Part shown: piece after piece, positions 1,452 through 40,865 of the stretch | Position numbering within the stretch: the stretch's first letter is position 1 | Layout of the letters: every line of letters begins with the position of its first letter | Source of the DNA: an uncultured Elusimicrobia bacterium | GTDB lineage: Bacteria; Elusimicrobiota; Elusimicrobia; 2-01-FULL-59-12 | NCBI GenBank assembly: GCA_963702895.1 | Contig: OY969767.1 | Coordinates: forward strand, 2,144,001 to 2,208,000 | Reading direction: 5' to 3' | Length of the DNA: 64,000 nucleotides | Notes under the pieces: model-generated | Seen by the model: only the letters and a program-made list of their open reading frames with translations | Databases searched by the model: none | What the model was told of the DNA's origin: nothing | Made by a program: the position numbers and the translations under genes

Positions 1452-1540
1452 GGTTCGAGCTCCAGAAATCCGGCGCTCGTCCGCCTGGCCGTGTGGCGGA
1501 CGACACTGCTCACCATGACCCTGAGCGCTAACGAGGGTAC
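1449..1540. repeat. GGTTCGAC...CTCACCATG-type palindromic repeat interrupted by a double CGCC-N8-GGCG hairpin
   Basis: catggttcg[agctcc-agaaatcc-ggcgct-cg-tccgcc-tggccgtgt-ggcgga-cg]acactgctcaccatg. Confidence 0.6.
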
Positions 1541-1560
1541 CGAGTTAGCCGGGAATCTTC

Positions 1561-1653
1561 TGTTGACGTCACCCCGGAGGTCCGTTATCCGGGGTCCATC
1601 ATCGACGGCAAAGAATTGATGGATCCCCCCCTTACGACCGGGGGGGATGACGG
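1561..1653. repeat. REP-like GTCA...TGAC double palindrome
   Basis: Near-identical reverse complement at 28215-28307; related copies at 26720-26836, 30463-30578, 38332-38570. Confidence 0.85.
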
Positions 1654-1709
1654 TACAAAAAAGTCCCGACGTCTCAGTCGATAAAGAACGTTCAACAGAA
1701 CTTTTCCGG

Positions 1710-3140
1710 TTAGTCGAATGGGTCATTTGTAGCCAGTATAACGGAGTTCCGGACAACGTCAATGAGAAAGGCAAGCTCCTTCGGGGTGATGGCCAAGGGG
1801 GGCATGATCACGATCACATCGCCCAAGGGACGGAGCCAGACCCCCCTCCGAATCGCCTCTTCACAGACCTTGAGGCCCATGCGCGCGCCCGGCGGGTAAG
1901 GACCGAGCTCGATGCCCGCCATGAGGCCCACCTGCCGGATGGCGCGCACGGGAGTGTGTCTCGTGAGCGGAGCCAGCCCTTCTGCAAGCTGCCGGGCGCG
2001 CGCCCTGACGTTCTGAAGAAGTCCCTTTTTCTGATACAGATCCAGGCTCGCCAGGGCCACCGCGCACGCCAGGGGGTTGGCCGTATACGTATGGCCATGG
2101 AAAAACGTTTTAAACTCATCATAACGGCCCAGGAACGCCCGGTAGATCTTTTCTTTCGCCAGGGTCGCCGCGAGTGGCAAATAGCCTCCCGTGAGGCTTT
2201 TGGCGACACAGAGAAAATCCGGCGCGACATCCTCCTGCTCACAAGCAAACATCGTTCCCGTGCGGCCAAAACCCGTCGCGACTTCATCCAGGATGAGGAG
2301 AACGTCGTATTTTTTGCACAGGCGCGCGACATGCGCGAGATACCCGCGGGGCGCAAGGAGCATCCCGGAAGCGCCCTGAATGAGGGGCTCCATCACGACC
2401 GCGGCGATATGAGAGTGGTGGCGGCGAAGGATGTTTTCCATCTCATCCCCCTCTCCCGGCGCAAGACGGGAGAGGGCGGTCGCCAGACGCCCGCCAACAT
2501 ACCCGGCGGGCGGTCGCCAGAAGTTTGGAGACCGTCTGGCGACTGGGTGAGGGCTCCTCTTGCCCTCATCCCTTCCTTCTCCCGCCTCCCGGCGGGAGAA
2601 GGGGTCCACCTGCCACCCCTGAAATAACAACTTCTTAAACCGGTTGTGGAACAGATCAATCCCCCCCACGCTCACCGAACCGATCGTGTCGCCGTGATAG
2701 CCCTCCTTGAGGGAGACGAAGCGCGTCTTCTTTTTCTGACCCACCAGCTGCCAGTACTGATAGGCCATTTTCAGGGCGACTTCGACAGCCGTTGATCCGT
2801 TATCGGAGTAGAACACCCGGGAGAGTCCTGGAGGAGCCAGTTCGACCAGCTTTTTAGCGAGCCGTATAGCGGGCTCGTGGGTCAGCCCCAGAAACGTGGA
2901 ATGGGAGATTTTGTCGATCTGATTCTTAAGCGCCTTGTCCAGCACGGGGTGACGGTGCCCCCAGACATTGACCCAAAGGGAAGAATTGCCATCCAGAAGC
3001 TTTCGTCCCTTGTGATCGCGCAGCCAAACACCCTGGCCGGAGGTAATGAGGATGGGATCGCGCGCCGCCCACTCGGCCTGTTGCGTGAAAGGATGCCAGA
3101 GGTAGGTTTTATCCCAACGAGCGAGGGCTAGGGTTGGCAT
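1710..3140 (-). CDS. bioA: Adenosylmethionine-8-amino-7-oxononanoate aminotransferase, with ~50-aa in-frame repeat insertion
   Basis: [59 protein letters not shown]. Confidence 0.95.
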
Positions 3141-3817
3141 TCTCGCTTGATCGCTTGAGCCAACAATTCCATTTTCGCCATGGCTTTGGCGGTCGCGCCC
3201 GGGTCTTTCTCAAAACGAGCATTGGCCTTTAAGTGCCCCAGCACCTGCTCCGTGGTATGGTCCTGCAGGACCTCAGGGTTCGTTTGTTCCGAGAGTGATT
3301 TGCCCTGGCCGCCGCTCAAGAGGACGCCGATCACGGGAATGTGTTGTCTCCCCAAGACATCCAGGGTGAGCAGGGTGTGATTGAGGGTCCCCAGCCCCGC
3401 GCGCGCCACAAGCAGCACGGGCAGCCTCAAGGCCTCGATCAAATCAAGCATATAAGTGGATTCCGCCAGGGGCACTTTGACTCCGCCAGCCCCCTCCACG
3501 ATCATCACGTCATGCTTTTTACTCAGCGCCCAGAAAGCCTTATAGATCTGCTCCATGTCCACTTCTTTGCCTTCGACTTGCGCGGCCACACAAGGAGCCA
3601 GGGGAGCCTTAAAAAATTGAGGATTGACATAAGCGATCTCATCCTCGACACGGGCCGCCTTGATCAAACGCTGGACGTCCTTCTGGTCCCCCGTGCAGAC
3701 CGGCTTCATGACGCCGACGTTGCAACCCCGGGACTTGAGCCACCGCGCGATGCCACAGGCCACGATCGTCTTCCCGACGCCCGTGTCCGTTCCTGTTACG
3801 AATATTCCTTTGTTCAC
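3128..3817 (-). CDS. bioD: Dethiobiotin synthase
   Basis: [33 protein letters not shown] at 3817 after GAGGGG RBS. Confidence 0.93.
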
Positions 3818-4220
3818 CTGATCGTTCCCCTCATCGTCGTTTGATGACGTTGCCAACCGGGAGCAGGATATCACTTTCCCCACAGGCCCCACAAAAGGGC
3901 GACCCCGGGAGGCAACAGCACGAATAGGGGCCCACGGACGTTTCGCATCATTTCGTTCGTAAATTCAGCCTAAATCACTCCGCCTTTACACCCTCCCCGT
4001 TGACTTTCCTATCATGGACAAGTTGCGCTGATTTCACTTCATCGTCATTGGTCTGTAACACGCGTCCGCTATGCTTCATACCAGAAGCAAAAGTTGGATG
4101 CGGGATCACACATTGGACATGGACGGCATCCAAGTCATATAATCTCTCGCTAAATAATAGTTTGAATGACTGGGCATAGATAGCATGCAAGAAATCTAAA
4201 AATACAAAAAGGAGATATTC

Positions 4221-4451
4221 ATGAAAAGATTCCTTCGAGTCCTGGCCGTGTTGTCACTGATTGTCACAATGGGTGGTGTTGGCATTAGCTCCGCGGATAC
4301 CTGTGATGAATTACAAGCGGCGGTTCAGGAGACAGAGACTGAGTATTGGGCCTGTATGGCGATATGGGGTTCATGGAGCGCTTGCATTAACCAAGATTAT
4401 GCGAGGATAATGGCCAAGCAAGCATATAATAATAGTCCGTGCATGTATTGA
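4221..4451 (+). CDS. Small secreted 4-Cys protein of unknown function
   Basis: AAGGAG RBS, MKRFLRVLAVLSLIV...ISSA signal peptide, downstream hairpin, AT-rich context. Confidence 0.7.
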   Translation: MKRFLRVLAVLSLIVTMGGVGISSADTCDELQAAVQETETEYWACMAIWGSWSACINQDYARIMAKQAYNNSPCMY

Positions 4452-38886: not shown

Positions 38887-40083
38887 TTAAGCAATGACTT
38901 CTGTAACGACTCCGGCGCCGACGGTGTGGCCGCCTTCACGAATCGCAAAGCGCACGCCCTTCTCCATCGCGATCGGCGTGATCAGCTCCGCGTCAAACTC
39001 AATGTTGTCCCCCGGCATCACCATCTCCACCCCGGGCTTCAAGGTGACGTTACCCGTGATGTCCGAGGTCCGAAAGTAAAACTGCGGCCGGTACCCTTTG
39101 AAAAAGGGCGTGTGACGCCCCCCTTCTTCCTTCGTCAGGATGTAGACGCTCGCCTTGAACTTCTTGTGCGGCGTGATCGACCCAGGCGCCGCCAGCACCT
39201 GCCCGCGCTCAATCTGGTCCTTCTCAATGCCCCGCAAGAGAATCCCCACGTTGTCCCCCGCGATGCACTCGTCCATCACCTTCCGAAACATCTCAATACC
39301 CGTGATCACGCTCTTCTTCGTGTCCTGAATCCCAATAATCTCCACGTTCTCGCCCACTTTGGCCTTGCCGCGCTCCACGCGCCCCGTCGCCACCGTCCCG
39401 CGGCCCGTGATCGAAAACACGTCCTCGACCGCCATCAAAAACGGCTTGTCCACCTCGCGCTTGGGCTCCGGGATGTTCGTGTCCAGGGCGTCAATGAGCT
39501 TCTTGATCGAGGCTTCCCCATACTCCCCTGCGTCGCCCGTCATGGCCTTGGTCGCGCTCCCCCGAATGACCGGTATCTTGTCCCCCGGAAACTCATACTT
39601 CGTGAGGAGCTCTCTGACTTCCATCTCCACCAAATCCAAGAGCTCCTTGTCTTCCACCAAATCACACTTGTTCATGTACACCACCAACGCCGGCACGTTC
39701 ACCTGCCGCGCCAAGAGCACATGCTCCCGCGTCTGCGGCATCGGCCCATCGGCCGCGCTCACCACCAGGACCGCCCCGTCCATCTGCGCGGCGCCTGTGA
39801 TCATGTTCTTGATGTAGTCGGCGTGGCCCGGGCAGTCGATGTGCGCGTAGTGGCGCTTCGCCGACTGGTACTCCACGTGGGAGACCGCCACCGTCAAAAT
39901 CTTCGAATCGTCCCGCACCACCCCGCCCTTGGCGATATCAGCATACGACTTGATCTCCGCCAGACCCTGCTTCGACAACACCTTCAAAATCGCCGTGGTG
40001 AGCGTCGTCTTCCCGTGGTCCACGTGCCCAATCGTCCCGACGTTCACGTGCGGCTTCGTGCGCTCAAATTTAGGTTTGGACAT
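38887..40083 (-). CDS. tuf: Elongation factor Tu
   Basis: [29 protein letters not shown]. Confidence 0.98.
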
Positions 40084-40182
40084 ACTTACTCTCCTTGTTC
40101 GATGTCAGTGGTTGCCTGCCCAGCGTCAGGCAGGCGTTTATCCTACACAATTTACAGCCCAATTTTTACTTCAACAAAAATC

Positions 40183-40290
40183 AGCTGGGGATCGGGATCG
40201 TCCGCCACACATCCGGCGGACGAGCGCCTGATGTCTGGCGCTCGAACCGACGACCTGTCGCCAGACACCTGGCGACTGCTCTACCAACTG
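40183..40290 (-). pseudogene. Disrupted partial duplicate of tRNA-Thr
   Basis: Matches the adjacent tRNA-Thr, but with a double hairpin in the T-loop, a hairpin replacing the anticodon arm, and no 5' acceptor strand. Confidence 0.75.
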
Positions 40291-40332
40291 TCCCGTCCTC
40301 TATACTCGTCCGCCAGACGTCTGGCGAAAATA

Positions 40333-40408
40333 TGGAGCTGGGGATCGGGATTGAACCGACGACCTCCTCCTTACCAAGGAGGTGCTCTACCAACTGAGCT
40401 ACCCCAGC
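40333..40408 (-). tRNA. tRNA-Thr (GGT)
   Basis: GCTGGGGTAGCTCAGTTGGTAGAGCACCTCCTTGGTAAGGAGGAGGTCGTCGGTTCAATCCCGATCCCCAGCTCCA. Confidence 0.95.
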
Positions 40409-40654
40409 AAAAACGGCAAAGCAGAAATCAGCCCCACCCGCTTGTTAAGCTCGCGAATGCGAGCGAGAATGATGGGGCAGTCCCGACGATTATGCACTCG
40501 CTTTGCGAGTGTTATGCAGAGGACGGGACAGAGAGCAGAAAGCAGAAATTTGGCATTGAGTCTCGTTTATAAAACAGCCGAGTCTTCGAGGCCGGCCCCA
40601 TCTCTGTACTCTGCATTCTGCTCTCTGCTCTCTGCTCTCTGCTCTGCCTCAAAG

Positions 40655-40865
40655 TGGAGCGGGTGATGGGAATCGTCCGCCACACACCTGGCGGACGAGC
40701 GCCCGTTGTGTGGCGCTCGAACCCGCTATGCGCTTAAGCGGGTGACCGGAATCGAACCGGCGTGTGCAGCTTGGAAGGCTGCCGTTCTACCATTGAACTA
40801 CACCCGCACCCGCTTAAGCGCATGCAGCTTGGAAGGCTGCCATTCTACCATTGAATTACTCCCGC
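40655..40865 (-). pseudogene. Split outer tRNA-Gly (TCC) carrying a T-loop insertion and a nested tRNA
   Basis: 5' half at 40865-40824; 3' half ending in CCA at 40727-40655 with insert at 40674-40719. Confidence 0.7.
40737..40807 (-). tRNA. tRNA-Gly (TCC), intact, no encoded CCA
   Basis: GCGGGTGTAGTTCAATGGTAGAACGGCAGCCTTCCAAGCTGCACACGCCGGTTCGATTCCGGTCACCCGCT. Confidence 0.88.

What the first reader, a model, noticed from the sequence alone, without database searches (positions are those of the whole stretch)
1456..40719. A ~20-bp hairpin micro-element (NNCGCC-N8/9-GGCGNN) that inserts at CG dinucleotides, including tRNA T-loops, and nests within itself
Seen directly: about 16 units at 1456-1502 (x2), 2477-2545 (x3, two nested inside a third), 9126-9149, 30481-30529 (x2), 38499-38547 (x2), 40199-40244 (x2), 40257-40276, 40309-40328 and 40674-40719 (x2). 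Loops resemble AGACATCT/ACACATCC. The outer stem bases vary between copies but usually stay complementary. In most copies the unit is bracketed by CG, and removing unit+CG restores a recognisable host: the GGTTCGA T-loop of tRNA-Gly and tRNA-Thr, the CCCCGG-TGAAAA-CCGGGG stem of a REP, or the AGACGTCT loop of another unit. Doublets read CG-hairpin-CG-hairpin-CG. Inference: an ultra-short non-autonomous element, or a templated hairpin-insertion process with a 2-bp CG duplication. It is far smaller than typical MITEs, and no mobilising enzyme is visible in this window.
Basis: partly seen in the sequence, partly recalled or inferred. Interest (0 to 1): 0.85.

Follow-up and report, generated by a model that had tools for sequence, protein, structure and literature searches.

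The report
Paired hairpin inserts with flipped target
A 20-base DNA hairpin has been pasted in back-to-back pairs into spare tRNA gene copies, other repeats and itself across this uncultured bacterium's genome, leaving an unusual scar (target, hairpin, flipped target, hairpin, target) that points to a tiny DNA-cutting enzyme found beside it.

Summary
In detail: 16 units in the window and 347 in the genome, against 6-13 in simulated genomes. The 'CG duplication' reading is only a special case. Units insert mostly as head-to-head pairs reading X-unit-revcomp(X)-unit-X, with X = 0-4 host bases. With non-palindromic spacers, 28 of 30 pairs here and 18 of 22 in relatives fit the inverted rule; none fits a direct duplication. 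Exact empty alleles exist for 48 of 93 pairs, always lacking one X. The hit tRNA sequences are spare partial copies beside intact genes, and some single units replace the anticodon arm exactly. The best enzyme candidate lies outside the window: a short GIY-YIG nuclease clade found in exactly the 5 of 61 genomes that carry T-loop pairs. All 12 clade members lie within 350 bases of a unit. Likely mechanism (inferred): a staggered two-strand cut, a hairpin added to each 3' end, fold-back copying, then rejoining. It works like Ssn/SRM and REP/RAYT pairs but failed the membership tests. This scan noted GIY-YIG/tRNA/hairpin cassettes before on other DNA; I found the inverted-centre scar neither in those notes nor in print.

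The parts
1456..1502 (.). Head-to-head pair CG-u-CG-u-CG (units 1458-1477 +, 1480-1500 -) just upstream of a cNMP-binding gene
   Evidence: no empty allele found in the genome
2479..2543 (.). Outer unit whose AGACGTCT loop holds a pair (2490-2510, 2513-2532; 45 bases added). It sits in a longer palindromic repeat, in frame inside a class-III aminotransferase (bioA-like, 1710-3140 -)
   Evidence: empty allele 9 times; the loop is 73 residues here against 22-25 in G003, G004, G006, G009
9128..9147 (.). Single unit, CG on both sides, in a CCCTCACCC/CCCTCTCCC-type repeat read in frame in a ketoacyl synthase (8070-9272 -)
   Evidence: an exact single-CG empty allele was not shown
30481..30530 (.). 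Pair with 3-base target: CGG-u(30484-30503)-CCG-u(30507-30527)-CGG, in an SRM/REP-like stem upstream of gcpE
   Evidence: empty allele 2 times
38498..38547 (.). Pair with 3-base target: CCG-u(38501-38521)-CGG-u(38525-38544)-CCG, in an SRM/REP-like stem
   Evidence: empty allele 5 times
40185..40290 (-). Spare partial copy of tRNA-Thr(ggt), from the D-arm to the acceptor stem
40199..40244 (.). Pair in the T-loop of the spare tRNA-Thr copy (units 40201-40220, 40223-40242)
40257..40276 (+). Single unit replacing the 17-base anticodon stem-loop of the spare copy
40309..40328 (.). Single unit 4 bases after the 3' end of tRNA-Thr
40333..40408 (-). Intact tRNA-Thr(ggt)
40655..40730 (-). Spare 3' tRNA-Gly fragment with a pair in its T-loop (units 40676-40695, 40698-40717)
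40737..40807 (-). Intact tRNA-Gly(tcc)

Best explanation
A nuclease-linked family of selfish micro-hairpins inserted by two-ended healing of a break. SHOWN: the unit is NN-CG[C/A]C-A[C/G]AC-NN-C-N-G[G/T]CG-N'N'. It inserts mainly as a head-to-head pair of two different units, flanked and split as X-u-revcomp(X)-u-X, into stem-loop DNA (tRNA arms, SRM/REP stems, its own loop). A short GIY-YIG clade travels with it at tRNA genes. INFERRED: the nuclease cuts folded single-stranded DNA on both strands with a stagger of k bases, leaving X and its complement as the two 3' ends. Each 3' end gains one unit in the same 5'-3' polarity, copied from or ligated to a donor hairpin elsewhere in the genome. 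The hairpin folds back and primes a few bases of synthesis on itself, which makes the variable outer stem bases complementary and writes revcomp(X). The two ends then anneal through revcomp(X)/X and are filled in by host enzymes. At essential tRNA genes only events that leave an intact duplicate survive, so pairs mark the spare copy, and the nuclease gene rides between the duplicates.
For: Inverted rule: 28 of 30 non-palindromic spacers in G000 (10 sequence families, 9 fit; perhaps six to ten independent events) and 18 of 22 in relatives. Direct duplication: 0 of 52. X tracks the host: outside G000 there are 24 distinct T-loop pairs after removing reverse-strand repeats, 7 CA-TG-CA and 17 CG-CG-CG, none mixed. 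Where the uninterrupted tRNA was in the locus (6 of 7 and 11 of 17) it had the same dinucleotide. Empty alleles for 48 of 93 pairs at exactly offset k and 0 at other offsets 0-6. Polarity: 93 of 107 close pairs are head-to-head. Class specificity: partners are short+short 75, long+long 17, mixed 1, with about 28 mixed expected. At the same T-loop the short class duplicates C56-R57, while the long class inserts between them with no duplication (3 cases). Enzyme link: profile A1 scores above 110 bits in G000, G001, G005, G007 (training) and G050 (not training), the same 5 of 61 genomes with T-loop pairs; the other 56 score at most 75.6. All 12 distinct full-length clade proteins, 7 of them outside the training set, have an 8/9-loop unit within 350 bases, against 6 of 31 other GIY-YIG rows. 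In both G000 tRNA-Asn cassettes the ORF reads through one unit and stops in the loop of the other. Precedent: SsnA, a single-domain GIY-YIG, binds a hairpin in ssDNA and cuts beside it (PMC11893778).
Against: No biochemistry and no reads: no public run held more than 12% of the region's words, so neither polymorphism nor intermediates were seen. GIY-YIG enzymes are known to me as hydrolases, not strand-transfer enzymes (recalled), so the joining step has no identified protein; Ku was not found. Zero-spacer pairs (23 of 93) offer no overlap to anneal through. Singles (anticodon-arm swaps, 9128-9147) need another or a partial route. G006 (96% complete) has 39 core matches, mostly the self-complementary loop, but no short-clade gene; G002 and G003 (73% and 89% complete) have pairs but no gene found. 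The co-occurring genomes are kin, and 4 of 5 trained the profile. The clade's tree support is only 88/80. Exceptions to the rule: 2 of 30 in G000, 4 of 22 in relatives, 5 of 25 CG pairs on one side, and 2 palindromic spacers in relatives with neither flank.
Confidence: 0.45

Rival explanations
1. The mobile species is a pre-formed dumbbell: a single-stranded minicircle of two hairpins joined by a k-bp duplex. It is excised from one site and integrated at a matching X by one crossover, catalysed by the same nuclease system.
For: A circle X-u1-revcomp(X)-u2 opened in X gives exactly the observed scar, including k=0 (sequence logic). Some stem pairings recur at different tRNAs.
Against: Pairs at different tRNAs and in different genomes reshuffle partners, outer bases and loop bases: 92 distinct perfect 20-mers among 160 copies. 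A travelling circle would carry its donor's X, yet X matched the resident tRNA in all 17 cases that could be checked.
Confidence: 0.2
2. The nuclease is a passenger or only a selective agent. Hairpins arise by host polymerase template switching, are kept because they shield spare tRNA copies or repeats from cutting, and spread by recombination and gene conversion.
For: Many pairs are passive copies inside amplified composite repeats or tandem arrays. Units occur in genomes where the clade was not found.
Against: Class-matched partners and class-specific geometry at one target, a fixed two-base register of the unit start, and conserved loop letters suggest a dedicated protein. Random template switching would not reuse one 16-base core.
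Confidence: 0.17
3. RNA route: units are spliced or ligated into tRNA loops and copied back by a reverse transcriptase.
For: 33 of 48 tRNA genes have a unit within 250 bases against 81 of 2000 random sites. Exact anticodon-arm swaps occur, and three RT genes exist.
Against: The RTs look like group II intron proteins (my reading of the translation). Two have no unit within 2.5 kb and one has units only 1.4 kb away. A single RNA strand does not explain an inverted second unit and an inverted target copy.
Confidence: 0.1
4. One reading: a single MITE-like unit inserting at CG with a direct 2-bp duplication, with doublets arising by repeat insertion.
For: 20 of 25 CG-spacer pairs have CG on both sides.
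Against: 0 of 52 non-palindromic spacers are direct copies; spacers are 0-4 bases long; repeat insertion would not force head-to-head polarity.
Confidence: 0.03

Closest known systems
Ssn nucleases (GIY-YIG, cd10448) with NTS/SRM hairpins; PMC11893778 (abstract, passages, sections 8 and 12 read)
   Same: A small single-domain GIY-YIG gene sits beside a polar hairpin repeat that is spread through the genome; the authors hypothesise an IS-like origin.
   Different: The unit does not match the SRM pattern (0 of 363 detector hits overlap one). SRMs here are targets, and they have their own SsnA-like genes (G000 543339 and 554279) on a separate branch. The paper has no mention of tRNA, and the sections I read describe no insertion product.
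REP/REPIN with RAYT (PMC3116915, passages) and GTAG/CGTC REP dimers (PMC3733652, passages)
   Same: About 20-base hairpins, inverted doublets as the likely moving unit, heterodimers preferred, in-frame copies in genes, insertion into other palindromes.
   Different: No GTAG or CGTC tag outside the stem. Only a weak, partial Y1 transposase hit, with no unit within 2.5 kb. The spacer is 0-4 host-derived bases. No inverted target copy is described in the passages seen.
SDR elements of Nostoc (Elhai et al. 2008; not held; seen only as cited in PMC5861425 and PMC3116915, the rest recalled)
   Same: Very small mobile repeats with preferred targets (HIP1 for SDR5); 21-27 bases and nested in each other (recalled).
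   Different: Reported only in Nostocaceae. I recall no paired insertion, inverted target copy or linked nuclease, but I could not check the text.
Fungal mitochondrial double-hairpin elements and GC clusters (PMC10085805 and PMC4478555, passages; Paquin et al. 2000 not seen)
   Same: Short GC-rich double hairpins, mobile without their own gene; endonucleases were proposed as helpers.
   Different: Organellar; GC clusters have direct AG or ACT flanking repeats, not an inverted middle copy.

Membership tests
Ssn/SRM | Repeat matches the published SRM degenerate motif | tested here: not met
   147 SRM matches in G000, none overlapping any of 363 unit hits by 15 bases or more
Ssn/SRM | Single-domain GIY-YIG gene flanked by its hairpin | tested here: met
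   PF01541 hits of 76-87 aa with units within 350 bases, 12 of 12
Ssn/SRM | Protein belongs to the cd10448 clade | tested here: inconclusive
   CDD is not available. In the tree the short clade is apart from the two SRM-flanked genes, which sit on a long branch that the tool flags
Ssn/SRM | Sequence-specific ssDNA cleavage | not testable with these tools
   needs purified protein
REP/REPIN-RAYT | Y1 HUH transposase gene flanked by the repeat | tested here: not met
   one partial hit (23.3 bits, 89-codon frame), no unit within 2.5 kb
REP/REPIN-RAYT | Unpaired GTAG or CGTC tag at one end | tested here: not met
   outer bases vary (TC, CC, AG, GT, GA, GG, CT) and flanks are host-derived
REP/REPIN-RAYT | Inverted doublets over-represented | tested here: met
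   93 of 107 close pairs head-to-head
MITE | Direct target-site duplication of fixed length | tested here: not met
   0 of 52 non-palindromic spacers direct; k = 0-4
MITE | Ends shared with an autonomous IS in the genome | tested here: inconclusive
   only the window's 7-copy DDE_Tnp_1_4 element was examined; the DNA shared by its copies ends about 100 bases before the nearest unit; other IS not examined
SDR (Nostoc) | Sequence or structure of SDR families | not tested
   paper not held

The most novel reading that the evidence does not exclude
An undescribed mode of DNA mobility. Minimal GIY-YIG nucleases, each clade with its own hairpin, cut folded DNA and cap both broken ends with a hairpin that self-primes and rejoins. 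The result is an inverted-centre target triplication rather than a target duplication, and tRNA arms serve as a universal landing structure. This would be a transposase-free, RT-free class of micro-element.
Probability: 0.35. Interest if true: 0.9.

Novelty: new variant of a known kind. Interest (0 to 1): 0.72.

Why it matters
How tiny palindromic repeats without genes (REPs, SRMs, SDRs, mitochondrial double hairpins) get copied is a long-standing open question, mostly because their insertion scars say little. Here the scar is exact and host-dependent, so it predicts the product at any chosen target (CA gives CA-u-TG-u-CA). It also comes with an 80-residue candidate enzyme. That makes the mechanism directly testable with oligos and a plasmid assay. 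It also explains the spare, broken tRNA copies and the in-frame loop expansions of enzymes in these genomes, and it suggests a further family of hairpin-guided ssDNA nucleases beyond Ssn.

Tried and rejected
RAYT/Y1 transposase: one weak partial hit, not flanked. Reverse transcriptase: three copies, not flanked. Ku: not found in G000. The DDE transposase next to 38501: seven identical copies, and the shared DNA ends before the unit. Long inverted triplications (spacer 5-300 bases at over 70% identity on both sides): none. Frame bias of pairs inside long ORFs: only 6 cases, uninformative. Exact single-CG empty allele for singles in the CCCTCACCC repeat: not among the 30 commonest spacers listed. 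Read mapping: no run held the region (best share 0.12). Geobacter and Pelobacter 'multicopy sequence' papers (PMC2700814, PMC2996986, PMC3543383; passages only) showed no such element in the main text; their supplementary alignments were not read and could hold related families. A Fisher test on nuclease-unit adjacency is not relied on, because the rows are kin. NCBIfam, PDB and atlas searches only confirmed a generic small GIY-YIG. Literature searches returned no description of this scar or of the tRNA-linked clade; the library lacks most subscription papers. Look-ups of earlier scan notes by sequence and by the rule's words found nothing.
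Full report
1. Observation. The window is G000:C1:2144001-2208000 of a 2.72-Mb, 57% GC genome; relatives carrying the same element are titled Elusimicrobiota. The strict CG-unit-CG pattern occurs 63 times at loop 8-9 and never in three order-5 Markov genomes. 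A broader detector gives 347 loci against 6, 6 and 13. The unit is polar: a 6-bp stem NN-CGCC (variants CGAC, CTCC), a loop A[C/G]AC-NN-C-N, and variable but complementary outer bases. A second class has 10-11-base loops beginning ACT.

2. The insertion rule. Of 107 close pairs, 93 are head-to-head. Their spacers are 0-4 bases (23, 6, 29, 18 and 17 cases). When the spacer is not self-complementary, both flanks equal its reverse complement in 28 of 30 cases and equal the spacer itself in 0 of 30. Many of these are passive copies inside amplified repeats: they fall into 10 sequence families, of which 9 fit, so perhaps six to ten events. Loci fetched from relatives add 18 of 22, again with 0 direct (these cover part, not all, of the pairs listed). 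The cleanest test is the tRNA T-loop. Outside G000, 24 distinct pairs (32 rows less 8 reverse-strand repeats) read CA-u-TG-u-CA seven times and CG-u-CG-u-CG seventeen times, never mixed, and X matched the uninterrupted tRNA in all 17 cases where it was in the locus. Joining the flanks and dropping one X recreates an exact 18-base sequence found elsewhere in the genome for 48 of 93 pairs, and no other offset from 0 to 6 does so. A further 18 pairs overlap by two bases, so that the outer stem bases are themselves host bases; 12 of 18 have an empty allele. This suggests that the variable outer bases are relics of earlier targets (inference).

3. Targets. 33 of 48 tRNA genes have a unit within 250 bases, against 81 of 2000 random sites. 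The hits are in spare partial copies next to intact genes, sometimes in tandem arrays (six repeats after tRNA-Gln(ctg)). In five copies (Pro-tgg twice, Ala-ggc, Arg-gcg, Thr-ggt) one 20-base unit replaces the 17-base anticodon arm exactly; a 15-base mini-hairpin does the same between tRNA-Ile and tRNA-Ala. Other targets are SRM/REP stems, heptamer repeats and the unit's own loop. In the window two fills are translated: the bioA-like loop is 73 residues against 22-25 in four relatives, while other relatives carry different repeats there. Partners are class-matched (75 short+short, 17 long+long, 1 mixed; about 28 mixed expected), and at the same T-loop the short class duplicates two bases while the long class duplicates none. 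Partners are never identical (0 of 56).

4. Enzyme. G000 has nine small GIY-YIG hits; six are beside tRNA genes. Two tandem cassettes after tRNA-Asn each read: ORF, then a tRNA 3' fragment with a pair, with the ORF stopping inside the second unit. The same short subfamily, which lacks the usual segment after the conserved His and ends in GNGRR, abuts pair-bearing tRNA copies in G001, G005 and G007. It keeps invariant Tyr, Gly, Arg, His and Glu (their catalytic role is recalled). Its profile scores above 110 bits in exactly the 5 of 61 genomes that have T-loop pairs, one of them outside the training set and from another family; the rest score at most 75.6. A metagenome scan returned 20 loci. 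All 12 distinct full-length clade proteins have an 8/9-loop unit within 350 bases, 7 of 7 outside training, against 6 of 31 other GIY-YIG rows. Two partial members were left out of these counts: one with units, one at a contig edge without. Longer relatives go with other hairpins, such as the mini-hairpin at tRNA-Ala. Against the link: G006 has 39 core matches and no clade gene, and G002 and G003 have a few pairs without a detected gene.

5. Range. The T-loop pair pattern gave 7 stretches in the GTDB collection, all Elusimicrobiota. An anchored general pair pattern hit 2 of 331 phylum genomes. This unit type is narrow in the collections searched. Earlier scan notes report the wider nuclease-tRNA-hairpin layout in other phyla; those notes are unchecked.

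6. Mechanism. Shown: unit anatomy, pair polarity, the inverted scar, empty alleles, class-specific geometry and co-location with one nuclease clade. Inferred: a staggered cut on both strands of folded DNA, addition of one unit to each 3' end, fold-back priming that copies the outer bases and X, annealing through revcomp(X)/X, and fill-in. I put nuclease involvement at about 0.7 and this exact route at 0.45. The dumbbell-circle route (0.2), host template switching with the nuclease as passenger (0.17) and an RT route (0.1) remain open. Zero-spacer pairs, arm-replacing singles and the joining activity are unexplained.

7. Comparison. It works like Ssn/SRM (PMC11893778: abstract, passages, sections 8 and 12) and REPIN/RAYT (PMC3116915 and PMC3733652: passages), a small nuclease with its own hairpin repeat. 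It is a member of neither: there is no SRM match, SRMs are its targets, there is no flanked Y1 gene, and there is no tag. It is not a MITE, as there is no direct duplication. Nostoc SDRs and mitochondrial double hairpins are analogues in size and form; the primary papers could not be read. Nine literature searches found no description of the scar.

8. Verdict. The feature is real and mobile, and more specific than first read. It is a new variant of the nuclease-plus-hairpin kind, with an insertion signature that may mark new chemistry. Interest 0.72.

Noticed in passing
window 36600-38395; also G000:C1 508306, 826534, 942838, 2127016, 2306884, 2568538: A DDE_Tnp_1_4 (IS1380-like) element in seven 100% identical copies, here between tuf and the tRNA-Trp/nusG block; it looks recently active.
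   Followed up: partly
window 2440-2580 and L069-L072, L077: The same loop of the bioA-like enzyme holds different in-frame palindromic repeats in different relatives (40-73 residues against 22-25 when empty): a repeatedly colonised site.
   Followed up: partly
G000:C1:1700710-1700840: A long (ATAG)n/(ATGG)n tetranucleotide microsatellite directly after tRNA-Ala(ggc) and its GIY-YIG cassette, unusual in a bacterium.
   Followed up: no
G000:C1:2455000-2455545: tRNA-Gln(ctg) is followed by six tandem 82-base copies of its 3' end, each with a hairpin pair; three share a G-to-A change.
   Followed up: partly
G000 tRNA genes, e.g. Ala(cgc) 817351, Pro(cgg) 909430, Asn 1813724: Many tRNA genes lack an encoded CCA, and their flanks extend the acceptor stem by several more complementary bases.
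   Followed up: no
G000:C1 543339 and 554279: Two SsnA-like GIY-YIG genes flanked by SRM hairpins; the genome has 147 SRM matches.
   Followed up: partly
G000:C1 230277, 463860, 1962540: Three near-identical reverse transcriptase genes (507-codon frames) that look like group II intron proteins.
   Followed up: partly
window 41276-63883 (-): A run of large tandem ORFs, most with fn3 or beta-helix domains and weak C-terminal secretion-tail hits; two pairs share repeated DNA.
   Followed up: no
L123-L127, L136, L138 (G006, G013, G030, G038): Other tRNA-adjacent GIY-YIG subfamilies come with their own hairpins (mini-hairpins replacing the anticodon arm, a CCTGCC-type palindrome in the D-loop), suggesting one hairpin per clade.
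   Followed up: partly
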